This document shows positions 1,797-12,914 of a stretch of DNA of 24,000 nt, one piece after another. The notes under the pieces are model-generated. The model was not told where the DNA came from. It was given only the letters and a program-made list of their open reading frames with translations, and did no database searches. Each line of letters starts with the position of its first letter. Position 1 is the first letter of the stretch. The DNA lies in contig CAZTAO010000003.1 of assembly GCA_964611645.1 (NCBI GenBank), positions 95,184 through 119,183 of the forward strand, given 5' to 3'. This DNA is from an uncultured bacterium. Its GTDB lineage: Bacteria; Armatimonadota; UBA5829. The translations under genes and the position numbers were made by a program.

Positions 1797-2246
1797 TTGA
1801 AGCATCGTCCCTCTTTTGATGAGACCTATATGGATGTGGTGGATGTTATCGCACGAAGGTCCACCTGCCTGCGGCGGCATGTCGGCGCGGTTGTGACCAT
1901 AGACCGCCGCATACTGTCGCACGGCTACAACGGCGTAGTAAGCGGCCGGGAGCACTGCTGCGAGACCGGTGTCTGCCTCAAAGACAAGGCCGGCAATGAA
2001 GATTTCAAGATCTGCGTGCATGCGGAGCAGAATGCCATCTGCCAGTGTGCCAAGCGGGGCCTGGCGGTGGAGGGGGCGACAGTATATGTGAACGCAGACG
2101 TGTGCGTTACCTGCGCCAAACTGCTGGTCAGTTCCGGCATTGCCAGGTGCGTGGTGCGGCGCGACAGAAAAGGCTCCGAAGACGGTTTGGATGTGCTTCG
2201 GCAGTCCGGGGTGGAAGTGATAGAGTGGCCCGATGGCTCAGCCTGA
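1797..2246 (+). CDS. deoxycytidylate (dCMP) deaminase, ComEB-type
   Basis: PSFDETYMDVVDVIARRSTCLRRHVGAVV...GYNG...CVHAEQNAI...VCVTCAKLL carries the cytidine/deoxycytidylate deaminase zinc motifs (HAE ... CxxC) in the dCMP-deaminase arrangement. TTG start with a Shine-Dalgarno sequence. Confidence 0.85.
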   Translation: MKHRPSFDETYMDVVDVIARRSTCLRRHVGAVVTIDRRILSHGYNGVVSGREHCCETGVCLKDKAGNEDFKICVHAEQNAICQCAKRGLAVEGATVYVNADVCVTCAKLLVSSGIARCVVRRDRKGSEDGLDVLRQSGVEVIEWPDGSA

Positions 2247-2922
2247 GATAAGGGCGTTCGTTTTTGACATAGGGGCCACCCTGGTCACAGGCCCGCCGGT
2301 CGCTCCCAACAAAGTCATAGCGGCACTGCTGCACGGGGTTACACCCAAGCAGGTCGCCTCCGTGATTATGACCTGTGACCTGCAGTCCTTCGCCCAGGCG
2401 ATATCGGCCCTGGAGGAGCGATTCGGCGCGATTGGTGAGTCCGAGCAGGCAGCAATCCGGGAGCTTTGGGATTCGCAATTGGGCGCGCCGGTTGCCATAG
2501 AGGGCGCGGTGGAGACTGTGCTGGCCCTCAAGCGCGAGGGTTTCAGGATAGGCCTGCTCTCAGACATCTGGACGCCATACTTCATGGGTGCATGCGAAGC
2601 GATACTCGAGGTAGTCGAGGCTGCGGATTGCGTCACCCTGAGCTGCCGCACCGGCCATCGCAAGCCTGAGCCCTTCAACTTCCGGACGGTTCTGTCCGGG
2701 TTGGGAGTGGAGCCGGGGGAGGCTGTGATGGTGGGCGACACATACGAGCATGACATCCACCCGGCGCTGGAAATGGGAATGCGGGCTGTGTGGGTCCTGT
2801 GCAGGCCCGACCGGGAAGCCGAGTCAGCCAGAGGCGTAATGGAAGGCAGCCTGCCAATGCCCACAAGGACCATCTTCGACATAACAGAACTAGCCGCGCC
2901 TGAAATCTGGCGCAGCCTTTAG
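2233..2922 (+). CDS. HAD-superfamily hydrolase (atypical motif I)
   Basis: Motif I is FVFDIGATL: the Asp nucleophile is present but Gly sits where the second Asp of DxD normally is. Motif II LLSD, motif III Lys in HRKPEP, motif IV VGDTYEHDI. The ATG at 2233 lies 14 nt inside the deaminase gene. Confidence 0.75.
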   Translation: MAQPEIRAFVFDIGATLVTGPPVAPNKVIAALLHGVTPKQVASVIMTCDLQSFAQAISALEERFGAIGESEQAAIRELWDSQLGAPVAIEGAVETVLALKREGFRIGLLSDIWTPYFMGACEAILEVVEAADCVTLSCRTGHRKPEPFNFRTVLSGLGVEPGEAVMVGDTYEHDIHPALEMGMRAVWVLCRPDREAESARGVMEGSLPMPTRTIFDITELAAPEIWRSL

Positions 2923-2930
2923 GAGAGAAC

Positions 2931-3545
2931 ATGCAGATCGAACGAGTTGAGCGCCATAGTCTGGATGAGTTGGTTGCGAATATGAGGAAGGTGGGGATGC
3001 TCACCGACCCCAGCGCGCGCGTGTATGAGAAGTGCGATGTGCAGGTGGTGACCTACCATACCGATGAGATTGCGCCTGCGCAGAGATACGTTCTCACCCA
3101 GGAGATAATGAAAGTCCGCAACCTCCGCTGGGCGCTTCGGGAGCACGGGGTAGACCTGTTCAAGCTGGACGGCTACGCCAGCATCTGGCTTCCCGGATAC
3201 GAGGAGCCCATAGACGTTCTCCCGCCGGTGATAGAAGAGTCCCGAGAAGCAGATGGCTCTGTTGTGAAGATACTCAACGACGGTATGCACCGGGTCTACC
3301 TCGCCCGGATGGAACGATGCCCGGTGCAGGTGGTCTATGTGACCGGTGTGCCCGAACAATACCCATACTATGCGTTTCCGCTTGTTGATGGCTGGAATGG
3401 CGTGGAGATAGTAAGCGAGCTTCCCGAGGGGTATATCAAGAAGTGGCACCGCATCAAGAACTACAAGTCCCTCTACCGGGACTTCAACACCGGTTTTACC
3501 AATGTCGGTGGGCCGCGAGGGAACTTTACCAATGCCGCAAAATGA
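2931..3545 (+). CDS. ParB/sulfiredoxin-fold (ParBc-like) protein of unknown function
   Basis: VKILNDGMHRVYLAR matches the DGxHR core of ParB-like nuclease/Srx domains, with an upstream PAQRYVL...LRWALREHGVDLF segment. AGGAG at 2920-2924 precedes the ATG at 2931. Amino-acid composition is normal, whereas the 267-aa antisense ORF is Ser/Arg/Pro-rich. Confidence 0.55.
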   Translation: MQIERVERHSLDELVANMRKVGMLTDPSARVYEKCDVQVVTYHTDEIAPAQRYVLTQEIMKVRNLRWALREHGVDLFKLDGYASIWLPGYEEPIDVLPPVIEESREADGSVVKILNDGMHRVYLARMERCPVQVVYVTGVPEQYPYYAFPLVDGWNGVEIVSELPEGYIKKWHRIKNYKSLYRDFNTGFTNVGGPRGNFTNAAK

Positions 3546-4989
3546 GAGGTCGGAGCTTGAGTTTGTCCCGCTGCACTTCGGAGACAAGCTGCACGTAGTC
3601 AACCCGCGCGCGCGGCTCGGGGTGCTGACGCTGTGGAGCAAGATTCCGTATGTGCTTGAGAAGATGGGTGAACTCGGTATCGACCTCGACCCCCACACCA
3701 GCAAGATAGCCGCAATAGGCACCCTCTACGGCAACGGCATTCCGCACCTGCTGCGAAACCTTCTGTACAATCCCCAGATCACCGGGCTGATAGTCTGCGG
3801 GGCGGACAGGTCCGGCTCGGCAGGCGAGCTTCAGGCGTTTTTCGAGAAAGGCCTTGAAGAAACGACTGTGCTCGGGGAGACGGTCAGTATGGTATGCGGA
3901 ACCAACAGGGTTATCGATGACCGCGTTACGCCGGACATGTTCAGCGTGAAGCCGGTCATAGTGAGTGTGGGCGACCTCAAGAGCGACGAGAGCCGTGGCA
4001 AGCTACGCGAAGCAATAGACTCCTGGCAGCCGGGATCCTATCTGAACCCCGATCGGACGGTTGTCGAACTCCCTAGGCCGGAACTGGTCTGTTTCCCCGG
4101 CGACCCTCGCAACCAGAACATATCCAAAGACTCCCCGCTGGACGCGTGGCGGGAACTGGTCTTCCGAATCTATCGCTTTGGCCACATGACCAAGCTGCGC
4201 AAAGGTGACAGGCAGGAGTTGCAGAACGTCCGCGTGGTTATCCGAGAGCCACGGCCGGACACCGCCGAACGGCTGCGGGAGTATGGTTTCGACCTGCACT
4301 CGCTTGAGGCCTATCAGAAGGACATGCTCGAGTCCGAGCTTCCGCCGGACCAGTCCTACACCTACGGCAACCGCATCCGATCATACTACGGCTTCGATGC
4401 CCTGGCTAAGTTCGCCGTGAGGCTGAAGTCCAATCCGCAGGACCGCGACTGCTATCTCTCCCTGTGGAACAGCTTCAAGGACATCGACGCCGACGACTCC
4501 CCCTGCCTGGTGTCCCTGTTCTTTCGAACATACGACGGCAGGCTGACTCTGACCGCCGTATACCGTACACACAACGCAGTCGACGCCTGGCTGAAGAACG
4601 CGTACGGGCTGATGAAGTGCCTCGAGGAAGTGTCTCGCGATTCGGGGATACCGATGGGCGAGCTCACCATGATCAGCCACTCCATCAGCATCGATCCATC
4701 CCGGTTCGATGTCGCCGAGCGCGTTGCGAAGTCCAGGGGCTTCGAGATAGACTTCGACCCCAACGGGCAGTTTGCGGTGAGCCTGGAGGAGGGGGAGATA
4801 GTTGCACGGCATCTGGACGATTCCGGGCGGGTGCTGGGCGAATATCGGTCAAAAAAGGCCGAGCGCATTCAGCACGAGATCGCCCGCGACTGCGCGATTT
4901 CCGATGTGAACCACGCTATGTATCTTGGCCGACAACTTGCCCGGGCGCAGGTGTGTTTAGAGACCGGCGAAGAGTTTGAGGAAAGCTGA
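3502..4989 (+). CDS. multidomain thymidylate-synthase-fold enzyme (MtrA-like N-domain + TS-like core + DUF4346-like C-tail)
   Basis: ATG at 3502; an alternative ATG at 3532 would overlap the upstream gene by only 14 nt. aa ~20-160: LGVLTLWS...IAAIGTLYGNGIPHLLRNLLYNPQITGLIVCGADRSGSAGELQAFFEKGLEE resembles the MtrA-type domain. aa ~205-405 is TS fold: YGNRIRSY, DRDCYLSLWN, DSPCLVSLFF (Cys335, nt 4504-4506, at the nucleophile position), LTLTAVYRTHNAVDAWLKNAYG (the LYQRSxD...PFNIASY block) and GELTMISHSISID (the GDAHIY block). aa ~412-495: DFDPNGQFAV...HAMYLGRQLARAQ resembles the DUF4346 signature. All alignments are by eye. Confidence 0.7.
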   Translation: MSVGREGTLPMPQNERSELEFVPLHFGDKLHVVNPRARLGVLTLWSKIPYVLEKMGELGIDLDPHTSKIAAIGTLYGNGIPHLLRNLLYNPQITGLIVCGADRSGSAGELQAFFEKGLEETTVLGETVSMVCGTNRVIDDRVTPDMFSVKPVIVSVGDLKSDESRGKLREAIDSWQPGSYLNPDRTVVELPRPELVCFPGDPRNQNISKDSPLDAWRELVFRIYRFGHMTKLRKGDRQELQNVRVVIREPRPDTAERLREYGFDLHSLEAYQKDMLESELPPDQSYTYGNRIRSYYGFDALAKFAVRLKSNPQDRDCYLSLWNSFKDIDADDSPCLVSLFFRTYDGRLTLTAVYRTHNAVDAWLKNAYGLMKCLEEVSRDSGIPMGELTMISHSISIDPSRFDVAERVAKSRGFEIDFDPNGQFAVSLEEGEIVARHLDDSGRVLGEYRSKKAERIQHEIARDCAISDVNHAMYLGRQLARAQVCLETGEEFEES

Positions 4990-4994
4990 GCGGT

Positions 4995-5942
4995 ATGACA
5001 GACAACGACCTAATCAGGCGCATCGAGTCGCTCAACAGGCGGCCGCTGAAGAACAAGCCCGAACCGGGGGAGGCAGTTTCGGGATTTCCGGAGCGGATGG
5101 AGGCTTCTTCTCTCTATCGAGGCCGCAGTGGTCGCTCCTCAAATCCCGAAACACCTGGGGATGGTGTTTCGGGACTTGAGCGGAGCGGAAGTCCCGAAAC
5201 ATCCCACGAACCTCCAGTGCTCAAGCTGGAGGAGACGATAGCGGGGGTGGTTACCGAGCCGAGGCCAGGCTGCTGCTACTACCACATCGAATGCCAGGCG
5301 GACTTGCCTGAGGTCTGCGCAGACATCATCCACGGCCGGTTCGTTCATCTTACCGGCCACCCGCACTCCGCCCCCATCGCCCCGCTTGCGGAGGGGTTCA
5401 GCTTGGAATCGCTGGACCCGACCAAAGTGGTGTTTATGGATATCGAGACCACCGGGCTAAGGGGCTGCCCGCTGTTTCTGATTGGCGCGATGCGATCCGA
5501 TGGTGAGAAGTTCATATTCAAGCAGTATTTTGCGCGTGACTACTGCGAAGAATCCGGCGTGATCGCGGCGTTTGCAGAGGACTTGCGCGATGTCGACCTG
5601 TTGGTGACTTTCAACGGGCTGAGGTTCGATATGCCGTTCATAGTGGGCCGAGGCTCGCATCACGGCATTCGCGTGCACTGCCACGGAGCGCACCTCGACC
5701 TCCTACTCGCCGCCAGAAAACATTACCGCAAAGAGACCCCCAACCACAAGCTCCAGACCCTGGAGCGGGTGATATGCGGTCGCGAGCGCGAGGGCGACAT
5801 CCCCGGCAGCCAGATTCCCCAGGCATACGATGACTACGTCTTCTCCGGCGACGCCTCCAGGATCACAACCATACTACACCACAACCGCCTGGATCTGCTC
5901 ACCCTGCCCGAACTGATGACCAGGATGTGGCGGGAAGAGTAG
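4995..5942 (+). CDS. RNase H-like (YprB/COG3359-type) predicted 3'-5' exonuclease
   Basis: VVFMDIETTGL (exo motif I), LLVTFNGLRFDMPFI (motif II) and HHNRLDLLTLPEL (motif III). The N-terminal DLIRRIESLNRR leader is typical of this family. ATG lies 5 nt after the previous stop, with GAGGAAAG upstream. Confidence 0.7.
   Translation: MTDNDLIRRIESLNRRPLKNKPEPGEAVSGFPERMEASSLYRGRSGRSSNPETPGDGVSGLERSGSPETSHEPPVLKLEETIAGVVTEPRPGCCYYHIECQADLPEVCADIIHGRFVHLTGHPHSAPIAPLAEGFSLESLDPTKVVFMDIETTGLRGCPLFLIGAMRSDGEKFIFKQYFARDYCEESGVIAAFAEDLRDVDLLVTFNGLRFDMPFIVGRGSHHGIRVHCHGAHLDLLLAARKHYRKETPNHKLQTLERVICGREREGDIPGSQIPQAYDDYVFSGDASRITTILHHNRLDLLTLPELMTRMWREE
5076..5200. repeat. palindromic repeat cluster inside the exonuclease ORF
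   Basis: GTTTCGGGA at 5076-5084 and 5166-5174; its complement TCCCGAAAC at 5144-5152 and 5192-5200. A perfect 12-bp stem pairs 5144-5155 with 5163-5174 across a 7-nt loop. A second 7-bp stem pairs 5171-5177 with 5189-5195. Confidence 0.8.
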
Positions 5943-6041: not shown

Positions 6042-7028
6042 CTATTGCCCGCCCCCTGCGACACCCGCTATCGCCGCAGCTATCTTCTCCGCCGTAGGCA
6101 TACATGCATCTTCTAGCACCCCGCTGAACGGCATGGGTATGTGTTCGGTTCCAAGCACCTTGGGCGGGGAGTCGAGGTAGTCGAAGCACTCCTCCGAAAC
6201 CCTCCGCACTATCTCGGCGCCAAAGCTCGACACGGGCGTGCATTCCTGCACCACCAGCAGCTTGCCTGTCTTCTTCACCGATTCGGCTATCAGCTCAAAA
6301 TCCAGCGGCACAAGGGTGCGCGGGTCTATGACTTCGACGCCTATCCCCGAACTCTGCCCCAACTCATCAGCCACCCGCAGCACGCTCTCCAGAAGGTAGG
6401 AGGTCGAGACTACGGTAACGTCCGCCCCCTCGCGCCGCACGATGCCTTTGCCGAACGGGATGGCGTAGTCCCCGTCCGGAACCTCTCCCTTGTTGGAATA
6501 GATGAACCGATGCTCGAGGAAGATCACCGGGTCGTCGTCCCGGATGGCGGTCTTCAGCAGGCCCTTGGCATCGTATGGCGTAGATGGCACAACTACCTTC
6601 AGCCCCGGGGTGTGCGCGAACCACGACTCCAGGCTCTGTGAGTGGTGCGCGGCTTCCCTGCTGCCGGACCCCTGCTCGCTGCGGATCACCATCGGCACAC
6701 ACACCGCCCCACCGGACATCAGCCTCAGCTTCGCGGCCTGGTTCACCACCTGGTCCCACGCGGTGGCGATGAAGTCGATGTACATAACTTCCACCACCGG
6801 CCTCAGCCCCGCAACAGCAGCGCCGACTGCCAAGCCAATAAACCCGCACTCCGATATCGGGGTCTGCCGAACCCGCATCTCTCCGAACTCCTCAAGCTGG
6901 CCCTGCTGGACCCCCCAGACTCCGCCGTATCGGCCTATATCCTCACCTATCTGGAACACCGACTGGTCGCGGCGCATCTCTTCCGCCAGGGCGTCTCGTA
7001 GGGCTTGTGTATAAGTTATTACTGCCAT
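6042..7028 (-). CDS. 2-oxoacid (pyruvate/acetoin-type) dehydrogenase E1 component, beta subunit
   Basis: ITYTQALRDALAEEMRRDQSVFQIGEDIGRYGGVWGVQQGQLEEFGEMRVRQTPISECGFIGLAVGAAVAGLRPVVEVMYIDF is a typical E1-beta N-domain. ATG lies 3 nt after the E1-alpha stop. Confidence 0.9.
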   Translation of the reverse strand: MAVITYTQALRDALAEEMRRDQSVFQIGEDIGRYGGVWGVQQGQLEEFGEMRVRQTPISECGFIGLAVGAAVAGLRPVVEVMYIDFIATAWDQVVNQAAKLRLMSGGAVCVPMVIRSEQGSGSREAAHHSQSLESWFAHTPGLKVVVPSTPYDAKGLLKTAIRDDDPVIFLEHRFIYSNKGEVPDGDYAIPFGKGIVRREGADVTVVSTSYLLESVLRVADELGQSSGIGVEVIDPRTLVPLDFELIAESVKKTGKLLVVQECTPVSSFGAEIVRRVSEECFDYLDSPPKVLGTEHIPMPFSGVLEDACMPTAEKIAAAIAGVAGGGQ

Positions 7029-7031
7029 CTT

Positions 7032-8000
7032 CTACAAACCTCCCAGGTGGTTTTCCGCTCGGAACTCGGCGACATCCGGCAGAGCGCTGGATTTGGCAAA
7101 CGCCTCAGCCTCATCAAGCTGCGCGCCAACCCTTTGGCGGACGTCTTTCAGCGCTTTGGCATTCGCCGCGCCGGAGTCCAACAGCCTCTTCTCAAAGGTG
7201 ACAATCGGGTCGTGCTCCCGCCAGTAGCTTTCCTCTTCGCGAGTTCGCAGCTTGCAGTCCTGCAGCACCATGCAGTGCCCCTCGTGCCGCAGGGTCTTGC
7301 ACTCCAGCAGCGTCGGCCCTTTGCCCGATCTCGCGCGCGCCACTGCTTTATCAGCCGCAGCCTTCACTTGCTCCACATCGTTGCCGTCCACGGTCACACC
7401 GGGAATCCCATACCCGGCCGCCCTGGCTGACACATCCGGCAAGGGCATCACGTCGCAGGACGGGGTTGTCGCGGCCCAGTGGTTGTTCTCGCACACGAAC
7501 ACAACCGGCAGACACCACAGCGCGGCCATGTTGATGCTCTCATGGAATGTGCCCTGGTTGGAGGCGCCATCGCCGAAGAAGCTGATTGTCACCTTACCAT
7601 CGTTCTTGTAGAGGCTCGAATAAGCGAGGCCGTTGGCCATTGGTATTCCGCCGCCGACTATCCCGTTGCCGCCCATATACCCGATTTCCGGCGCGAAGAT
7701 GTGCATAGACCCGCCCCGGCCCCGACTGTAGCCTGTCTCCTTGCCCAGCAGTTCCGCCATCACCCGCTTTGGCTCGCAGCCCTTGGCAATCGCGTGGCCG
7801 TGGCCCCGATGGGTGCTGACCACGTAGTCCCCAGGCTCCAGCGCCGCGCAGACACCCGCCGCACACGCCTCTTCGCCGATGTACAGATGCAATGCCCCGA
7901 CCAGCAGCCCCTGCCGGTGCAAGGCCTTGGCCCGCTCCTCAAACCCTCGGATCAGGAGCATTGTCTCCATTAGCTTCATTGAATCAGTCTGATTTTTCAC
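7032..8000 (-). CDS. 2-oxoacid dehydrogenase E1 component, alpha subunit (TPP-dependent)
   Basis: YIGEEACAAGV, HRGHGHAIAKG, GGSMH and the TPP motif GDGASNQGTFHESINMAALWCLPVVFVCENN. I place the start at GTG 8000, which overlaps the mttB-like stop as GTGA. The alternative is ATG 7979. The ORF-track start at 8105 would overlap the upstream gene by 109 nt. Confidence 0.85.
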   Translation of the reverse strand: MKNQTDSMKLMETMLLIRGFEERAKALHRQGLLVGALHLYIGEEACAAGVCAALEPGDYVVSTHRGHGHAIAKGCEPKRVMAELLGKETGYSRGRGGSMHIFAPEIGYMGGNGIVGGGIPMANGLAYSSLYKNDGKVTISFFGDGASNQGTFHESINMAALWCLPVVFVCENNHWAATTPSCDVMPLPDVSARAAGYGIPGVTVDGNDVEQVKAAADKAVARARSGKGPTLLECKTLRHEGHCMVLQDCKLRTREEESYWREHDPIVTFEKRLLDSGAANAKALKDVRQRVGAQLDEAEAFAKSSALPDVAEFRAENHLGGL

Positions 8001-9484
8001 GCTCCCAACAGCTCTTTCCTCGCGCTCGCGACTATTCCATCCAATTCCCTGACCCAATCCGCAGTCCGCTCGACGGGCTGGTAGCCCTTCATCTGCTCCC
8101 GCCACATCTGGTCGGCCTCATCCAGTATCGCATTCTCATCGGCTTTCCACAGGCCGGTGGTGGGGTCGTCGGTGCGGAAGAGCGGCGAGGAAAACATCTC
8201 GCGGAAGTGGGCGATGGTATGCTCGCTGCCGATCATGTTCTCGCCGGTTTCGATGGACTCGCGGATAAGGTCATACGGCACGGTCTCATCGCTCACACAT
8301 ACCTCTTCAGGGACAAACAGCGCCTTCTTGATCTCGATATCCAGCACCGCCTGGGTCGGCGAACCGACACCGCCGTTCCCAATGGTCCCCACGCCGGGGT
8401 AATTGAACACCGTGCTTCCCTGCAGCCTCATATTCCTGTGCATCCCGCCCAAGCTCTCCACCACAGCCTGAATGCCCGGCTTCCTGGCGGCGGGGGTGAA
8501 GAATGTGTCCACCCGGATATGGCCGCCGAAGAATGCGTTGAACAGTTCCTTCACGCCGATATTCGCCAGCGAGGATTCGACCGTCGCGCTGGTGACATCC
8601 GCGGTTCGCATATCCAGCATCGATGCCAGCGCGCGGCCCGTGATGTCGGCATCATTGTTCTGGGTCCATACGGCCACCATCCCCCCCAGTATCTCAGCCG
8701 CCATCATCACAGTCGCGCCTGCGGCTGTGACGGGAGTGTTGAGGCCAATCACCATCATCGTAGCAACGTGGTACCGCCCGATCCCCAGCCTGGCCCGCTC
8801 CACGGCTTCCTCAGCGGAACGGTAATCAAAGGCCAGCGGAGGAGTCACGCACTGCGAACCTGCGAGGTAGGCCGATTCCTTCGGTTTGCCGGTCATAAGC
8901 TCGCCGACCGCCTGGATATACTTGATCATCTTCGGGTCGATGGCCTCGATGCCGCCGACTTTGTCGGTGATCTTCAGCGCCATTGCCAGCGACTCAATTC
9001 GCTCGGTCTGCGGCGGCGCGTCCTGGCGGTACCAGTTTGCGATGTAGCCGATCTCAGGCACGCTGTGCGCCCATTTGTGCATATCGGTGAATATCCTGGA
9101 GTCCACGGGCAGCACCCGCTCGGTGGGGTAGTCGTAGTATGCGGTGGGGCCGCAGTCGAAGACGGTTGTCCGCATCATCTTCCTCATCCGCTGCTCTTCC
9201 CGCTCACGTCCGCCGGTCCAGGTGAGGAAATGGCCGTAGTCTACGATGCCGAAGCGGTTGATGAACTGCTCTCGCTCGTCATCCTCCGTCCGGGTCCGCG
9301 CCTGGCTCAGAGCGAACTCCTCGATCAGCTTCCGAGGAATCCGCACGCGCCCGCTTGGCGACAACTCGCACCCCGCCGCAAGCATATCCCCCTGCATCTT
9401 CTCATGCTCCACGCGCATCCCAACGTCCCCAAGAAGCCGCACCACATCATCCCGCAATCTCTCCAACTGCGACTGAGTCAACAT
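7997..9484 (-). CDS. MttB-family (trimethylamine/quaternary-amine) methyltransferase homologue, non-pyrrolysine
   Basis: 495 aa. The N-terminus LTQSQLERLRDDVVRLLGDVGMRVEHEKMQGDMLAAGCEL..GRVRIPRKLIEEF and the overall length fit COG5598/MttB-superfamily proteins as I recall them. There is no in-frame TAG. AGGAGGAG Shine-Dalgarno at about 9492-9499. Confidence 0.65.
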   Translation of the reverse strand: MLTQSQLERLRDDVVRLLGDVGMRVEHEKMQGDMLAAGCELSPSGRVRIPRKLIEEFALSQARTRTEDDEREQFINRFGIVDYGHFLTWTGGREREEQRMRKMMRTTVFDCGPTAYYDYPTERVLPVDSRIFTDMHKWAHSVPEIGYIANWYRQDAPPQTERIESLAMALKITDKVGGIEAIDPKMIKYIQAVGELMTGKPKESAYLAGSQCVTPPLAFDYRSAEEAVERARLGIGRYHVATMMVIGLNTPVTAAGATVMMAAEILGGMVAVWTQNNDADITGRALASMLDMRTADVTSATVESSLANIGVKELFNAFFGGHIRVDTFFTPAARKPGIQAVVESLGGMHRNMRLQGSTVFNYPGVGTIGNGGVGSPTQAVLDIEIKKALFVPEEVCVSDETVPYDLIRESIETGENMIGSEHTIAHFREMFSSPLFRTDDPTTGLWKADENAILDEADQMWREQMKGYQPVERTADWVRELDGIVASARKELLGA

Positions 9485-9513
9485 ATACCGTCTCCTCCTA
9501 GAAAAGCACTATT

Positions 9514-9827
9514 AACATCGATATACAGGATGGACAGGATAAGAGGAACGATCCACAGATGACGCAGATTTCTGTTGGCAGTTGGCAGTTGACGGTTGCC
9601 TGTCACCTGTATTCGAAGCTCTCAATCGTGTATTAGCCCAATTCCCCCTTTGAAGGGGGCTTCCGCAGAAGGGGGATGTGAGCGGCGTACCGATCACGTA
9701 CAATGTCAGCGATAGGAAGTCACATCCCCCCCACTGCGTGGCCCCCTTGCCAAGGGGGAATTGGGCAGCGTGCTTCTCCAACCGTCAACCATTCCCGTCC
9801 CCCAAATCCCGTATATCCTGTCCATCC
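9514..9827. repeat. ~300-bp composite palindromic (MITE-like) intergenic element
   Basis: Module order is A(9514-9541) B(9551-9569) C(9588-9598) D(9637-9687) D'(9720-9765) C'(9778-9790) A'(9814-9827). GGATGGACAGGATA at 9528-9541 is the inverted complement of TATCCTGTCCATCC at 9814-9827. GCCCAATTCCCC...GGGGAATTGGGC and GGGGGATGTGA...TCACATCCCCC are also inverted pairs. Confidence 0.8.
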
Positions 9828-9830
9828 ATG

Positions 9831-11189
9831 TCAAATACCCGAATTCACCATCCCAATAGCCTCATCCAGCCCCCGCAGCACGGTGTCCAGTTCCTCACGG
9901 GAGATCACCAGCGGTGGGGCGAGGACCAGGATGTCGCCGTTATTCCGCAGGATCATGTTGTGCTCCAGGAACCAGTCTCTTATCTTTGTGCCGACGCCTA
10001 GCTTGGGGTCGAGCGGCTTTTTGGTCTTGCGGTCGGCCACAAGCTCGATGGCCCACAAGAGGCCGATGCCTCGGATATCGCCGACTATCGGATACTTGTA
10101 GAGCTTGTTCAGTTCCTGGGTCATGTACGCGCCGTTCTCCGCGGTACGCTCGACCAGCTTCTCTTTCTCCATCAGTTTCATCACAGCCAGTGACGCCGCG
10201 CAGGCGAGGGTGTGGCCGCCATAAGTGCCGCCGGAACGGAACTCCTTGCCCGGTTCGCCCCTGAAGATATCGGCGATCCGCTGAGTGGTGATGGTGGCCG
10301 ACAGCGGCACGTAGCCTCCGCTGATGGCCTTGCCGATGGTCATGATGTCCGGCGTGACATTCCAATGCTCGCAGGCAAACCACTTGCCGGTCTTGCCGAA
10401 CCCTGTCTGGACTTCATCGAATATCAGCAGGATTCCATATCGGTCACACAGTTGCCTGATCCCTTCCAGATAGCCCCTGGGGGGCAGCGGGTAGCCGGTG
10501 TTGGAGCCGGGGATGGGGTCCATGATCATCGCCGATATGGTATCTGGAACCTCCGCAAGAATCGCGTCCTCCACTGCTTTGAGGCAGGCGAGGCCGCAGG
10601 TCTCCCGCTCCTGGCCCAGCTCGCAATGAGCGCAGGATGCGGAGGGCACGAACACAGTTCCCGGCACCAGCGGCTCAAAGTATTCCCGGAACCACGACAG
10701 CCCGGTAATAGCCGCGCCACCGAGCGTAGTTCCGTGATAGGAGTTCCTCCGAGCCAGCACCTTCCATCGCCGCGGCTGGCCGTTTTGCAGATGGAACTGC
10801 CGCGCCATCTTGATAGCGGCCTCGTTGGCTTCGGACCCGCTGTTCACGAAGAATGTCACCGACAAATCCCCCGGCGCAACCTCCGCCAGCTTGATGGCAA
10901 GTTCGATGAGAGGTTCGGTGAAGGCATCTACGTAGTTGGGGAAGAACTCGAGCTTGTCGATCTGGTCTTTGAGCGCCTGGTTGATCTCGGGCCGGCAGTG
11001 GCCGCAGATGGTGGTGAGCAGTGAGGCAAAGGTATCGAGGTAGCGGTTGCCGTTCTCATCGATGATATAGCAGCCCTCGCCCCCCGCGAATATCTTGGGC
11101 CCCTTGGCCAGTTCTGCATTGCTGGCAAAATGCGGAATTATGTATCGCAGCGCCGCCTCGTGAAGCCGGTCGCTCTTCTCGTTTCCCAT
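9831..11189 (-). CDS. class-III (omega) pyridoxal-phosphate aminotransferase
   Basis: SYHGTTLGG, LIFDEVQTGFGKTGKWFA and PDIMTIGKAISGGYVPLSA (PLP lysine in TIGK). Length 452 aa. Confidence 0.85.
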   Translation of the reverse strand: MGNEKSDRLHEAALRYIIPHFASNAELAKGPKIFAGGEGCYIIDENGNRYLDTFASLLTTICGHCRPEINQALKDQIDKLEFFPNYVDAFTEPLIELAIKLAEVAPGDLSVTFFVNSGSEANEAAIKMARQFHLQNGQPRRWKVLARRNSYHGTTLGGAAITGLSWFREYFEPLVPGTVFVPSASCAHCELGQERETCGLACLKAVEDAILAEVPDTISAMIMDPIPGSNTGYPLPPRGYLEGIRQLCDRYGILLIFDEVQTGFGKTGKWFACEHWNVTPDIMTIGKAISGGYVPLSATITTQRIADIFRGEPGKEFRSGGTYGGHTLACAASLAVMKLMEKEKLVERTAENGAYMTQELNKLYKYPIVGDIRGIGLLWAIELVADRKTKKPLDPKLGVGTKIRDWFLEHNMILRNNGDILVLAPPLVISREELDTVLRGLDEAIGMVNSGI

Positions 11190-11469: not shown

Positions 11470-11544
11470 TGGTGGGCCCACTCGGATTCGAACCAAGGAC
11501 CAAGCGGTTATGAGCCGCCCGCTCTACCGCTGAGCTATGGGCCC
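11470..11544 (-). tRNA. tRNA with anticodon CAT (elongator Met or Ile2/lysidine type), CCA encoded
   Basis: The reverse complement GGGCCCA-TA-GCTC-AGCGGTA-GAGC-G-GGCGG-CTCATAA-CCGCT-TGGTC-CTTGG-TTCGAAT-CCGAG-TGGGCCC-A-CCA folds by hand into a 75-nt cloverleaf. Position 1:72 is a paired G-C, so it is not a bacterial initiator. Confidence 0.9.
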
Positions 11545-11743: not shown

Positions 11744-12214
11744 TTGGCGATATCCGAAGAAGAACTGGTGGCGCGGGCACAGTCGGGCGACACGGGGGCA
11801 TTCGACGCCCTCATTGGCCTGCACCAGCGGCGGGTCTTCGCGCTGGCGTTCCGGATGCTCGACAGCGCCGATGATGCCGCGGATGTCCAGCAGGAGACTT
11901 TCGTTCGCGCTTGGCGGAGCCTGCGCAAGTTCCGTGGGGACGCGGCATTCTCCACCTGGCTGCACCGGATAACCGTCAATTTGTGCCTGGCCAGAAAGCG
12001 CCGCAGGCATTTTGAATGGCTCAGCCCGGCTATCGAGTCGAGCCTGGGAGACCCCACGCAATCGGTAGGGGCCGCCTGCCTGGTGAGGACAGAGAGGGCG
12101 GTGGCGGTCAACAGCGTGGTAGCCTCGCTGCCGGCGCATTACCTGGCGCTGATTGTGCTGCGGGAAATCGAGGAGCGGCCGTTCGAGGAAATTGTGCGGA
12201 TTCTGGGCTGCTGA
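11744..12214 (+). pseudogene. ECF-type sigma-70 family factor, 3'-truncated
   Basis: Region 2 is DAADVQQETFVRAWRSLRKFRGDAAFSTWLHRITVNLCLARKRR. Region 4 starts LPAHYLALIVLREIEERPFEEIVRILGC and then hits TGA (12212-14), before the expected recognition helix (GTVKSRLxRAR-type). The sequence beyond belongs to a transposase fragment on the other strand. Confidence 0.6.
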
Positions 12215-12914
12215 CTTTCATCACGCGACACTCAGGATCAGAGGAAGATGCAGACTTAGTGCCTGCTTCCTTGAGCACCCTGGCACGCTCGGCCAGAATC
12301 GCTTTCCGCCTCACTGGGTCCTTCAGGTCTTCGGGCAGTTCGTTCCCGTTTCCATCGCCATAGAGTTGGTCCTCAGCAGAATCCGTCGTCTCAGCCTTGC
12401 GAAGCGTCTCGTCCACAGCGGCCAGTTCCCGGGACAAGTTCTTGGCATCGTAAACTGACTTCCTGGAAGCCTTGGCGGCAATCTTGGTAGAGTCCACTGA
12501 AACTACGTTCAGAAGCACCAGGCCACACGAAGCACACAACCTCACGCTGTCCACAAACAGCAGCCTCAGCTCCTCATACTTCTGCTTCCGAAAACGAGCT
12601 ATCGTATGGTGATCCGGAGTCAGACCGTCAGCAAGCCACATATAGCGCTTGTCGTTCTTAGCCAAGTCCTCAATCTTACGGCTGCTGAAAGTGCCCTTAG
12701 AATATGCATACACCAACAGCTTTGCCAGGACGCGTGGAGGATACGCAGGACAGCCACTATCGCTATAACCGGATTCCATAACTGACCAGTCCAGATTCTC
12801 CATCACGTCGTTGAGCGCGCGGACGTCACAGTCAGCGGCAACTGCGTCATCCAGACTGGTCGGAAACAGCAGTATCTGTCTCCTATCCAAAACCGAATCC
12901 TTGAATCTGCCCAT
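12215..12914 (-). mobile_element. IS1182/IS5-type transposase, N-terminal fragment only (DDE domain missing)
   Basis: The InsH/DUF772-type N-domain reads CPAYPPRVLAKLLVYAYSKGTFSSRKIEDLAKNDKRYMWLADGLTPDHHTIARFRK. Homology-like sequence ends at ...SSSDPECRVMKVS (~12213), where such transposases normally continue into the catalytic domain. The rest of ORF 12108-12914 is antisense of the sigma gene. GGAGGG Shine-Dalgarno 7 nt before ATG 12914. Confidence 0.6.

What the first reader, a model, noticed from the sequence alone, without database searches (positions are those of the whole stretch)
3502..4989. 495-aa fusion: MtrA-like domain + divergent thymidylate-synthase core + DUF4346-like tail
The central ~200 aa keep the TS-fold landmarks by eye. 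These are the Cys nucleophile context SPC (Cys335, nt 4504-4506), the WN block (SLWN), an Arg in YRTHN aligned to the QRS phosphate-binding Arg, and a His in SHSISID aligned to GDAHIY. The canonical H after the Cys, the Q of QF, the RR pair (only DRD here) and the PFNIASY Asn context are all altered, which suggests a different substrate or cofactor. The core is sandwiched between two domains. The N-domain resembles the methanogen corrinoid protein MtrA (IAAIGTLYGNGIPHLLRNLLYNPQITGLIVCGADRSGSAGELQAFFEKGLEE). The C-tail (DFDPNGQF...HAMYLGRQLARAQ) resembles what I remember of DUF4346, a domain usually attached to pterin-binding proteins. Where MtrA has KGH, this protein has RSGSAG, so His-on corrinoid ligation is doubtful. 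I am not aware of a characterised TS-family enzyme with pterin- or corrinoid-associated accessory domains.
Basis: partly seen in the sequence, partly recalled or inferred. Interest (0 to 1): 0.78.

Follow-up and report, generated by a model that had tools for sequence, protein, structure and literature searches.

The report
Three-domain thymidylate-synthase-like enzyme, divergent subtype
This gene encodes a thymidylate-synthase-type enzyme sandwiched between two cofactor-associated domains; it belongs to a large but never-studied family and has a cofactor pocket altered in a way so far seen only in phage enzymes that use a flavin instead of folate.

Summary
ORF 3502-4989 (the real start is probably ATG 3532, giving 485 aa) encodes three domains: an MtrA-fold domain, a short methanogen-type thymidylate synthase (TS) core, and DUF4346.

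The architecture is not rare. It appears in at least 242 clusters at 50% identity and at least 181 species. Databases call it only "thymidylate synthase" or "DUF4346 protein", and I found no paper or solved structure for it.

The family splits in two:
- **Type I** (CPR bacteria, DPANN archaea) keeps all canonical ThyA contacts.
- **Type II** (this window, Armatimonadota, sulfate reducers, Nitrospirae) keeps the catalytic Cys, Arg166 and Asn177. It always has Asp169→Asn, His207→Ser/Thr/Gly and Tyr209→Asp/Asn/Ser, and it has lost Arg127.

Asp169→Asn is the published signature of the flavin-dependent 5-hydroxy-dCMP synthases of phages. These are also the closest solved structures.

The MtrA-like domain lacks His84, Glu54 and the meander motif, so MtrA-style corrinoid binding is unlikely.

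Type II genes sit in a recurring cassette: dCMP deaminase (or dCTP deaminase), a HAD phosphatase, a ParB/sulfiredoxin-fold protein, then the TS fusion.

My best reading is a dUMP-specific thymidylate synthase with re-tooled cofactor handling. I could not test whether it is the organism's only TS.

The parts
1797..2246 (+). dCMP deaminase, first gene of the cassette. In some other genomes a dCTP deaminase occupies the same slot.
   Evidence: PF00383 E 2e-17. PHROG dCMP deaminase E 7e-42. Closest solved structures are dCMP deaminases 4p9c, 2hvv and 1vq2. It overlaps the next gene by 14 nt. A DCD replaces it in L004, L070 and L075.
2233..2922 (+). HAD-superfamily phosphatase of unknown substrate.
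   Evidence: PF00702, PF13419 and PF13242. Only sub-threshold NCBIfam hits. Generic HAD matches in PDB. Found next to the TS fusion in 28 of 81 loci by profile search; an independent blastp clustering of the same neighbouring ORFs put HAD-like ORFs in 44 loci.
2931..3545 (+). ParB-CE protein (PF24392). It has a ParB/sulfiredoxin fold with a DGMHR nucleotide-binding motif. It probably binds an NTP, and its function is unknown.
   Evidence: PF24392 E 2e-61. AlphaFold model pLDDT 90.6. Best folds are sulfiredoxin, Atu1540 and ParB N-domains. About 900 homologues, all annotated 'hypothetical'. Adjacent to the TS fusion in 37 of 81 loci across several phyla. Its stop overlaps the TS start by 14 nt.
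3532..4989 (+). Three-domain TS fusion gene, type II.
   Evidence: Model m897f5f8b5158, pLDDT 91.3.
3616..4020 (+). MtrA-fold (Rossmann-type) N-domain without the His-on corrinoid ligand.
   Evidence: PDB MtrA E 7e-5 with the family profile. NF002126 E 5e-4. MtrA His84 aligns with Ser106 and Glu54 with Tyr76 (495 numbering). The GAIPFxEN meander is absent. Gly57 and Asn64 are retained.
4120..4692 (+). Short, methanogen-type thymidylate synthase core.
   Evidence: TIGR03283 E 7e-33, 113.9 bits, below the 174.55 cut-off. Foldseek against PDB: 9iqu E 2e-12 with TM 0.76, then MilA and ThyA.
4504..4506 (+). Codon of the catalytic Cys335 (equivalent to E. coli Cys146).
   Evidence: Invariant in 119/119 relatives. 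It becomes Ser in the degenerate second TS copy of the 786-aa Abditibacteriota proteins.
4573..4575 (+). Codon of Asn358, at the position of E. coli Asp169, which binds the pterin. This is the Asp169→Asn change that defines type II.
   Evidence: Ungapped 11-residue register from Arg166 to Asn177. Asn in 64/64 type II proteins and Asp in 43/43 type I proteins. Asn in all 80 genome loci.
4756..4980 (+). DUF4346 domain (three beta strands plus two helices), following directly on the TS core.
   Evidence: PF14251 E 6e-19. Conserved Asp419, Gly422, His471 and Gly476 (495 numbering). No solved relative.
4995..5942 (+). RNase_H_2 / PolB-exonuclease-like protein, 5 nt downstream. It is a lineage-specific neighbour and probably not part of the core system.
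   Evidence: PF13482 E 1e-33. Present downstream in only 5 of 81 loci.

Best explanation
The gene encodes a thymidylate-synthase-type enzyme that works on dUMP. dUMP is supplied by the dCMP deaminase encoded in the same operon. Cys335 adds to C6 of the uracil ring; Arg355, Arg315 from the partner subunit and Arg237 hold the phosphate; Asn366 reads the uracil. A one-carbon unit is then placed on C5, and the most likely net product is dTMP.

This protein belongs to a derived subclass ('type II') of a large three-domain family. In type II the pocket that holds the pterin ring in ThyA has been re-tooled: Asp169 is always Asn. The one-carbon donor and/or the reductant is therefore probably not handled as in ThyA.

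DUF4346 follows the TS core exactly where the C-terminal lid of ThyA sits. I read DUF4346 and the MtrA-fold domain as cofactor-holding modules. The MtrA-fold domain is not a His-on corrinoid protein.

The translationally coupled ParB/sulfiredoxin-fold protein and the HAD phosphatase are accessory nucleotide-handling enzymes. One idea that fits both cassette versions is that the ParB-like protein converts dCTP or dUTP to the monophosphate.

**Shown:** the domain architecture, the TS fold, conservation of the catalytic residues, the type I / type II split, and the recurring cassette.

**Inferred:** the substrate, the product, the cofactor switch, and the roles of the accessory domains and neighbouring genes.
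For: - TS fold and methanogen-type TS homology over the whole core.
- Cys invariant; Arg166 99%, Asn177 98% and Arg126 91% conserved over 119 relatives down to 25% identity.
- Residues at positions 167 and 126' are the deoxy-type Ser/Thr and Arg, following the MilA criteria.
- A dCMP deaminase sits upstream in a tight operon. In other genomes a non-homologous dCTP deaminase fills the same slot, which argues that the cassette needs a deoxyuridine nucleotide.
- Type I relatives with the same three domains score at the equivalog threshold of methanogen-type TS (168-190 bits against 174.55). They occur as lone genes among housekeeping genes in small CPR and DPANN genomes.
- Tandem TS-DUF4346 duplicates in Abditibacteriota have lost the Cys only in the second copy. 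This is expected for an obligate TS-like dimer with shared active sites.
- Cofactor re-tooling: Asp169→Asn in 64/64 type II proteins against Asp in 43/43 type I. Type-specific residues in the N-domain (Gly77, Gln92) co-vary with it.
- In the 390-position profile NF002128 the MtrA-like and DUF4346 parts are contiguous, so the TS core sits inside a pre-existing two-part module.
Against: - I could not establish whether genomes with type II lack thyA and thyX. If they have one, a second dTMP synthase is less likely.
- Asp169→Asn abolishes dTMP synthesis in canonical TS (from my own recollection of L. casei D221 mutant work, not checked here).
- In every tested phage enzyme Asp169→Asn marks a hydroxylase, not a methylase (PMC13326640).
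- His207 and Tyr209, described as 'extremely conserved' across TS, dCMP and dUMP hydroxymethylases and MilA, are both replaced.
- The score on TIGR03283 (113.9) and on PF00303 (21.1) is below each curated cut-off.
- A plain dTMP pathway does not explain the conserved HAD and ParB/Srx-like partners.
Confidence: 0.45

Rival explanations
1. The enzyme makes a 5-substituted dUMP other than dTMP, such as 5-hydroxymethyl-dUMP or 5-hydroxy-dUMP. The ParB/sulfiredoxin-fold protein (as a kinase or NTPase) and the HAD phosphatase then process this product or clear competing nucleotides. That is the logic of phage base-modification pathways: deaminase, TS homologue, kinase, nucleotidase. The product would go into DNA or a nucleoside metabolite.
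For: - Asp169→Asn is the published diagnostic of the 5-hydroxy-dCMP synthases.
- The best structural matches are those enzymes, 9iqu and 9iqc.
- Sequence neighbours among cultured phages include the PaMx11-type TS homologues, which some records annotate as deoxyuridylate hydroxymethyltransferase.
- The residue three before the Cys (E. coli Leu143) is Asp here, as in hydroxymethylases.
- The conserved HAD and ParB/Srx-fold partners are otherwise unexplained.
- A type II-like copy sits on a jumbo-phage contig.
Against: - Flavin hydroxylation needs O2. By my own knowledge of these species, not tested here, the cultured carriers (Desulfofundulus, Desulfovirgula, Desulfacinum, Desulfoglaeba) are strict anaerobes. 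Many of the MAGs come from digesters.
- The Leu143 position is variable across the family. It is Glu in a methanogen-type TS, so that criterion does not transfer.
- The gene is chromosomal, spans several phyla and sits among housekeeping genes. It has no glycosyltransferase or other modification genes nearby and no defence-system hits.
- Wholesale replacement of T in cultured species would probably have been noticed (inference).
Confidence: 0.22
2. The enzyme uses ordinary ThyA chemistry. Methylene-tetrahydrofolate (or a related pterin) serves as both one-carbon donor and hydride donor. The flanking domains are structural or binding aids that compensate for the shortened core. The Asp169→Asn, His207→Ser and Tyr209→Asp changes are neutral or compensated.
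For: - Type I relatives with identical architecture keep all ThyA contacts.
- Ser396 and Asp398 could still hydrogen-bond the 3'-OH (inference).
- DUF4346 is otherwise found attached to pterin-binding proteins (TIGR00284 hit).
- Part of the DUF4346 beta-hairpin aligns with the C-terminal hairpin of ThyA.
Against: - Five canonical positions change together and without exception across 64 clusters and 80 species. That pattern looks like a functional shift rather than drift.
- His357, next to Asn358, also becomes invariant.
- Asp at position 169 is needed for dTMP formation in canonical TS (from my own knowledge, not tested here).
Confidence: 0.15
3. The enzyme is a corrinoid-dependent methyltransferase. 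The MtrA-like domain carries a methyl-cobamide, and the Cys-activated C5 of dUMP attacks it directly, giving dTMP without a reduction step. The cobamide is re-methylated from a methyl-pterin.
For: - The N-domain is homologous to the corrinoid protein MtrA.
- MtrA Gly57 and Asn64, which contact the nucleotide tail, are retained.
- Corrinoid proteins without a His ligand exist (own knowledge).
- The window also encodes an MttB-family methyltransferase, so corrinoid metabolism is present.
Against: - His84, its partner Glu54 and the conserved GAIPFxEN meander are all missing, and this is true in both subtypes.
- Type I keeps the pterin-binding Asp169 and the full ThyA set, which argues for methylene-pterin chemistry in the ancestral three-domain form.
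- No cobalamin riboswitch lies upstream in the window or in 9 related loci.
Confidence: 0.06

Closest known systems
Methanogen-type (short) thymidylate synthase, TIGR03283 (e.g. ORF59 of Methanobacterium virus PhiF1)
   Same: It has the same compact, roughly 200-aa TS core, alignable end to end (E 7e-33). The Pro-Cys nucleophile, Arg166, Asn177, the YTYG motif and the conserved Glu after the first phosphate loop are shared.
   Different: That enzyme stands alone and keeps the RR pair, Asp169, His207 and Tyr209. The window protein scores 113.9 bits against a cut-off of 174.55, carries Asn, Ser and Asp at the last three positions, and is fused to two extra domains. Even the methanogen enzyme's cofactor use is poorly documented (PMC9012536).
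ThyA (E. coli / L. casei thymidylate synthase, PF00303)
   Same: It shares the fold (Foldseek E about 1e-10), the catalytic Cys146, Arg166, Arg126', Asn177, Tyr94 and Trp133, and by inference a dimer with shared active sites.
   Different: The window protein lacks the Glu58 helix and the small domain. Asp169→Asn, His207→Ser, Tyr209→Asp and Arg127→Asp. Phe176 and the Trp80/Trp83 folate contacts are not conserved. It scores below the Pfam gathering threshold.
Flavin-dependent 5-hydroxy-dCMP synthases of phages (RB69 gp48, HY126 AfhB; PDB 9iqu and 9iqc)
   Same: These are the best structural matches (TM 0.70-0.76). They are short TS cores, keep the catalytic Cys, and share the diagnostic Asp169→Asn change.
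   Different: They have Asp at position 177 (cytosine-specific), keep the RR pair and His207, stand alone, and need O2. The window protein has Asn177 (uracil-specific), extra domains and, by my own knowledge of the named species, mostly strictly anaerobic hosts.
MtrA, corrinoid subunit of the methyl-H4MPT:CoM methyltransferase (PF04208; PDB 5laa, 8q3v)
   Same: It shares a Rossmann-type fold and the motif G-x-x-x-(L/I)-x-N-x-x-x-N-P-x-I ... C-G.
   Different: The window domain has no His84, no Glu54, no GAIPFxEN meander and no membrane helix. Its partner is a TS core rather than MtrH.
Bifunctional DHFR-TS of protozoa and plants
   Same: An N-terminal nucleotide-binding-type domain is fused to a C-terminal TS. 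This precedent suggests that a cofactor-recycling activity can be fused to TS (own knowledge; DHFR-TS chains appear among the hits through their TS part only).
   Different: The N-domain here has no DHFR homology, and there is an additional C-terminal DUF4346.

Membership tests
Thymidylate synthase superfamily (ThyA fold, PF00303) | TS alpha/beta fold | tested here: met
   AlphaFold model pLDDT 91.3. Foldseek against PDB gives E 2e-12 to 1e-9 to TS, MilA and AfhB, with TM up to 0.76 on the target.
Thymidylate synthase superfamily (ThyA fold, PF00303) | Catalytic Cys in a Pro-Cys motif (E. coli Cys146) | tested here: met
   Cys335, invariant in 119/119 relatives.
Thymidylate synthase superfamily (ThyA fold, PF00303) | Phosphate-binding Arg166 and Arg126' | tested here: met
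   Arg355 is 99% and Arg315 is 91% conserved.
Thymidylate synthase superfamily (ThyA fold, PF00303) | Pfam gathering score | tested here: not met
   21.1 bits against 24.3; only aa 287-368 matched.
Canonical folate-dependent ThyA (dTMP synthase) | Asn177 reading uracil | tested here: met
   Asn366 in WLKN, 98% conserved.
Canonical folate-dependent ThyA (dTMP synthase) | Asp169 binding the pterin ring | tested here: not met
   Asn358. Asn in 64/64 type II proteins and in all 80 genome loci.
Canonical folate-dependent ThyA (dTMP synthase) | His207 and Tyr209 binding the 3'-OH of dUMP | tested here: not met
   Ser396 and Asp398. The role of these residues is described in PMC5175136.
Canonical folate-dependent ThyA (dTMP synthase) | Arg127' (second Arg of the RR pair) | tested here: not met
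   Asp316 in the window; Lys, His, Asp or Gly across type II.
Canonical folate-dependent ThyA (dTMP synthase) | dTMP formation with dihydrofolate release | not testable with these tools
   Needs an enzyme assay or thyA complementation.
Methanogen-type thymidylate synthase (TIGR03283 equivalog) | Score at or above the curated cut-off of 174.55 bits | tested here: not met
   113.9 bits for the window and 88-119 bits for other type II proteins. Type I proteins score 168-190 and PhiF1 TS scores 187.
MtrA corrinoid protein (PF04208 / TIGR01111) | Homology to the MtrA Rossmann-type domain | tested here: met
   Family profile against 5laa and 8q3v gives E 7e-5. NF002126 gives E 5e-4. Type I relatives reach E 6e-27.
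MtrA corrinoid protein (PF04208 / TIGR01111) | His84 lower axial ligand with Glu54 hydrogen-bond partner | tested here: not met
   His84 aligns with Ser106 (Ser in 94/119 relatives, never His). Glu54 aligns with Tyr76.
MtrA corrinoid protein (PF04208 / TIGR01111) | Meander consensus GAIPF-Y/F-xEN | tested here: not met
   The aligned segment reads VCGTNRVIDD and carries no such motif.
MtrA corrinoid protein (PF04208 / TIGR01111) | Bound cobamide | not testable with these tools
   Needs UV-visible spectra or metal analysis of the protein.
DUF4346 (PF14251, 'PterinBD-DUF4346') | Pfam gathering score | tested here: met
   69 bits against 29.6, covering profile positions 2-84 of 86.
Flavin-dependent 5-hydroxy-dCMP synthase (RB69 gp48 / AfhB) | Asp169→Asn signature | tested here: met
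   Asn358. The signature is defined in PMC13326640.
Flavin-dependent 5-hydroxy-dCMP synthase (RB69 gp48 / AfhB) | Asn177→Asp (cytosine substrate) | tested here: not met
   Asn366 is retained.
Flavin-dependent 5-hydroxy-dCMP synthase (RB69 gp48 / AfhB) | Bound flavin and O2-dependent hydroxylation | not testable with these tools
   Needs biochemistry. By my own knowledge the cultured carriers named are strict anaerobes, which argues against O2 chemistry.
dCMP/CMP hydroxymethylases (T4 gp42, MilA) | Asp at position 177 plus an acidic residue at position 143 | tested here: not met
   Position 177 is Asn. Position 143 is Asp in the window but variable across the family (Ser, Gly, Asp, His, Asn, Lys).

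The most novel reading that the evidence does not exclude
Type II enzymes are ThyA-fold enzymes of cellular organisms that have swapped the pterin in the TS pocket for a cofactor with a 2,4-dioxo ring, such as a flavin or deazaflavin. The invariant Asp169→Asn points to this, as in the phage hydroxylases. Because the hosts are mostly strict anaerobes, the chemistry would be O2-independent. Two options fit. One is a flavin-mediated reductive methylation of dUMP, that is, ThyX-like chemistry on a ThyA scaffold with a Cys nucleophile, which would spare dihydrofolate reductase. The other is synthesis of a new 5-substituted deoxyuridylate that the ParB/sulfiredoxin-fold protein and the HAD phosphatase then process. 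Either would be a third mechanistic class of thymidylate-type synthesis, spread over several bacterial phyla.
Probability: 0.2. Interest if true: 0.85.

Novelty: new variant of a known kind. Interest (0 to 1): 0.66.

Why it matters
Thymidylate synthesis is essential and is a drug target. Only two enzyme classes are known, ThyA and ThyX.

This is a third, widespread arrangement: at least 181 species, including CPR bacteria, DPANN archaea, Armatimonadota, sulfate reducers and magnetotactic Nitrospirae. Nobody has characterised it.

Its type II branch carries the same single-residue signature that, in 2026, was shown to mark a folate-to-flavin cofactor switch in phage TS homologues. If type II is the sole TS of these organisms, it shows how dTMP is made with a re-tooled cofactor site and what DUF4346 and the non-corrinoid MtrA-like domains are for. 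If it is not the sole TS, it points to an unknown modified-pyrimidine pathway in cellular genomes.

Both outcomes can be tested directly with cultured carriers and an E. coli thyA complementation.

Tried and rejected
**Searches that found nothing**
- Literature: nothing on DUF4346; nothing combining MtrA, thymidylate synthase and tetrahydromethanopterin; nothing on 'dCMP hydroxylase'; nothing on thymidylate synthase in Armatimonadota.
- 'ParB-CE' returned only ParB-Cerulean or ParB-centromere papers. One search was wasted by a loose term setting.
- No THF, cobalamin, FMN or other riboswitch upstream of the cassette: nothing in the window except a tRNA, and nothing in 9 related loci.
- No ThyA, ThyX or FolA within the window or in 86 flanking regions, apart from the fusion itself. 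This does not settle the whole-genome question.
- No solved structure for DUF4346 and no sequence-level solved relative for ParB-CE.
- The BFVD viral structure library shows only TS-core matches and no three-domain viral protein.
- Among cultured phages only the TS core is found.

**Ideas considered and rejected**
- A defence system: no meaningful PADLOC hits for the TS fusion, ParB-CE or HAD.
- A change of nucleotide substrate to a ribonucleotide: positions 167 and 126' are deoxy-type by the MilA criteria.
- The upstream deaminase acting on a pterin rather than dCMP: a dCTP deaminase replaces it in the same slot, and its closest solved relatives are dCMP deaminases.

**Tools or look-ups that failed**
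- Exact look-ups of P0001 and P0279 were not on record, so the window's own contig and the Desulfoglaeba context were not retrieved.


Full report
**1. The observation**

A second ATG at 3532 has a GAGGGA box about 10 nt upstream. It matches the 100%-identical 485-aa database entry P0001 and the point where homologues begin to align, so 485 aa is the likelier product.

Profile searches confirm all three parts:
- DUF4346 (PF14251), aa 419-493: E 6e-19, well above the Pfam cut-off.
- A thymidylate synthase core, aa 207-397: it matches the whole 201-position methanogen-type TS model TIGR03283 at E 7e-33, but at 113.9 bits it falls below the 174.55-bit equivalog cut-off.
- An MtrA-like N-domain: weak with the single sequence (E 0.011 against PDB 8q3v; NF002126 E 5e-4), and E 7e-5 with a profile of 46 relatives.

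An AlphaFold model built on that alignment is confident (pLDDT 91.3, pTM 0.85). Its central domain matches TS-fold structures at Foldseek E 1e-10 to 2e-12.

**2. How common it is**

The fusion is not peculiar to this genome.
- An exhaustive HMMER scan of 1.84 billion cluster representatives found 242 clusters at E<1e-30. Of the 149 best, 120 have the full N-TS-DUF4346 order.
- A scan of one genome per GTDB species found 181 species.
- Carriers include Armatimonadota (the window's nearest relatives, 60-65% identity), Vulcanimicrobiota, Bacillota (Desulfofundulus thermobenzoicus, Desulfovirgula thermocuniculi), Thermodesulfobacteriota (Desulfacinum, Desulfoglaeba alkanexedens, Desulfobacca), Nitrospirae (Magnetobacterium), Planctomycetota, KSB1, Patescibacteria, Nanobdellota, an archaeal contig and a jumbo-phage contig.
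- Sources name these proteins only 'thymidylate synthase' or 'DUF4346 domain-containing protein'.
- I found no paper on the fusion or on DUF4346 and no solved structure.

**3. Two subtypes**

I aligned 119 diverse full-length members and compared them with E. coli ThyA, a methanogen-type TS (virus PhiF1), PaMx11 gp51 and RB69 gp48. The family divides cleanly.

*Type I* (43 representatives; Patescibacteria, Nanobdellota, KSB1, an archaeal contig):
- It keeps the RR pair, Asp169, His207 and Tyr209 of ThyA.
- It scores 168-190 bits on TIGR03283, like a genuine stand-alone methanogen-type TS (187 bits).
- It hits Pfam MtrA strongly.
- It was a lone gene among housekeeping genes in the three contexts examined.

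*Type II* (64 representatives, all 80 retrieved genome loci, and the window):
- It keeps Cys146 (100%), Arg166, Arg126 and Asn177.
- It always has Asn for Asp169, Ser/Thr/Gly for His207, Asp/Asn/Ser for Tyr209, and a non-Arg residue for Arg127.
- It has its own invariant residues: Arg237, and in the N-domain Gly77 and Gln92.
- The register from Arg166 to Asn177 is ungapped, so the Asp169→Asn assignment is secure.

Asn177 is conserved. The His in SHSISID lies three residues before the His207 position and is not invariant. The Arg of DRD is Arg126.

**4. What the changes mean**

The MilA paper states that His207 and Tyr209 bind the 3'-OH of the nucleotide. It also says they are 'extremely conserved' in TS, dCMP hydroxymethylase, dUMP hydroxymethylase and MilA, and that Ser167 plus Arg126' specify deoxyribonucleotides (PMC5175136). 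The window has Thr356 and Arg315 at those two positions, so a deoxynucleotide is still expected. Ser396 and Asp398 could take over 3'-OH binding (inference).

Asp169 contacts the pterin ring in ThyA (own knowledge). A 2026 study found that Asp169→Asn is the conserved signature of phage TS homologues that make 5-hydroxy-dCMP with a flavin and O2. It proposed the signature as a predictor (PMC13326640). The crystal structures of such an enzyme (9iqu, 9iqc) are the best structural matches to my model (TM 0.70-0.76).

Those enzymes have Asp at position 177, whereas the window keeps Asn, so uracil rather than cytosine is read. By my own knowledge of the species, the cultured carriers are strict anaerobes, and many of the MAGs come from digesters. 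O2-dependent hydroxylation is therefore an unlikely conserved function. I read Asp169→Asn as evidence that the cofactor pocket no longer binds a pterin in the ThyA manner. An amide side chain would suit a 2,4-dioxo ring such as a flavin or deazaflavin (inference).

**5. The flanking domains**

In MtrA, cobalamin is held by His84, which is hydrogen-bonded to Glu54, with a conserved meander GAIPF-Y/F-xEN. Gly57 and Asn64 contact the nucleotide tail (PMC4915002). In the window, His84 aligns with Ser106, which is Ser in 94 of 119 relatives and never His. Glu54 aligns with Tyr76, and the meander motif is absent. Gly57 and Asn64 are kept. This holds for both subtypes. MtrA-style His-on corrinoid binding is therefore not supported, and the domain is better described as an MtrA-fold, glycine-rich nucleotide-binding-type module.

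In NCBIfam profile NF002128 the MtrA-like part (positions about 112-270) is immediately followed by DUF4346 (275-369). The TS core is thus inserted into a pre-existing two-part module.

DUF4346 (three strands plus two helices; conserved Asp419, Gly422, His471, Gly476) follows the TS core where the C-terminal lid of ThyA lies. Its first hairpin even aligns with the C-terminal hairpin of ThyA. I could not inspect coordinates, so its contact with the active site is inferred.

Some 786-aa Abditibacteriota proteins carry a second TS-DUF4346 unit in which the Cys is Ser. This fits a TS-like dimer with shared sites in which only one site needs to be active.

**6. Genomic context**

In the window five genes are packed with overlaps or gaps of 5-14 nt: dCMP deaminase (1797-2246), HAD phosphatase (2233-2922), ParB-CE (2931-3545), the TS fusion, and an RNase_H_2-type exonuclease (4995-5942).

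Across 81 non-redundant type II loci, within 4.5 kb:
- ParB-CE is present in 37.
- A dCMP deaminase is present in 26.
- A HAD is present in 28 by profile search; an independent blastp clustering of the same neighbouring ORFs put HAD-like ORFs in 44.
- 36 loci, mostly Thermodesulfobacteriota, have none of these.

In a Bacillota MAG and two Nitrospirae, a dCTP deaminase sits where the dCMP deaminase is elsewhere. This non-homologous replacement is the strongest contextual evidence that the cassette needs a deoxyuridine nucleotide.

ParB-CE is more conserved than the TS fusion (70-80% against 60-65% within Armatimonadota). Its confident model (pLDDT 90.6) has the sulfiredoxin/ParB N-domain fold with a DGMHR motif, so it probably binds a nucleoside triphosphate. 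A speculative role that fits both cassette versions is conversion of dCTP or dUTP to the monophosphate.

Type I genes lacked all these partners in the three contexts examined.

**7. Verdict**

My best reading (0.45) is a dUMP-specific thymidylate synthase of a divergent subclass whose one-carbon donor or reductant is handled differently from ThyA, with DUF4346 and the MtrA-fold domain as cofactor modules.

The rivals are:
- a different 5-substituted dUMP processed by the ParB-like and HAD proteins (0.22);
- ordinary ThyA chemistry with neutral substitutions (0.15);
- corrinoid-mediated methyl transfer (0.06).

The key missing fact is whether type II genomes lack thyA and thyX, which I could not obtain with the tools. 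No such gene lies in the 86 flanks, but that is not a genome-wide test.

The finding is a real, widespread, uncharacterised variant of a well-known enzyme family, and the experiments to resolve it are clear.

Noticed in passing
P0003, P0004 (786 aa, Abditibacteriota); also P0124, P0253, P0144: These long forms carry a tandem second TS-DUF4346 unit. In P0003 and P0004 the second copy has Ser for the catalytic Cys and Met for the His of SHSISID, but keeps YRTHN, WLKN and the Arg126 motif. It looks like a fused pseudo-dimer with one dead site.
   Followed up: partly
L006 (ENA contig labelled Patescibacteria_UBA6164, 189,409 bp), gene 8001-9440: A type II-like fusion (Asp169→Asn, with Arg126 replaced by Ala) sits on a contig that also carries phage sheath, T4 gp19 tail-tube and baseplate genes. 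The contig is probably a jumbo phage or prophage mis-binned as Patescibacteria. It has no ParB-CE, HAD or deaminase nearby.
   Followed up: partly
window 2931-3545 and about 900 homologues: ParB-CE (PF24392) is a compact, highly conserved family with a sulfiredoxin/ParB fold. It has no assigned function and no solved relative by sequence. It is linked to type II TS fusions in several phyla and deserves study in its own right.
   Followed up: partly
window 7997-9484 (-): An MttB-superfamily (trimethylamine methyltransferase-like) gene sits next to pyruvate/2-oxoacid dehydrogenase E1 alpha and beta genes (6042-8105, -) and a class-III aminotransferase (9831-11189, -). It indicates corrinoid-dependent methyl metabolism in this organism. 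A 556-aa ORF on the opposite strand (7892-9562) is probably spurious.
   Followed up: no
window 11473-11544 (-) and 12108-12914 (-): A tRNA gene is followed by a DUF772 transposase ORF in a stretch of lower G+C (0.528 over 12-14 kb, against about 0.59 elsewhere). This may be an insertion-sequence landing site.
   Followed up: no
window 4995-5942 (+): An RNase_H_2 / PolB-exonuclease-like gene lies 5 nt downstream of the TS fusion. It is conserved there in only some Armatimonadota (5 of 81 loci). Any functional link to the cassette is unknown.
   Followed up: partly
NCBIfam NF002128 (390-position 'MtrA' profile), seen through P0210, P0243 and P0204: A separate family annotated as MtrA consists of an MtrA-like domain directly followed by DUF4346, without a TS core. 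The two flanking domains of the fusion therefore form an independent module whose function is also unknown.
   Followed up: no
L048, L051, L058, L066, L068, L072, L074 (Desulfacinum, Desulfosoma, Syntrophobacteraceae): These loci show a different cassette order: dCMP deaminase, TS fusion, HAD, with no ParB-CE within 7 kb. HAD and ParB-CE can therefore be linked to the TS fusion independently of each other.
   Followed up: no
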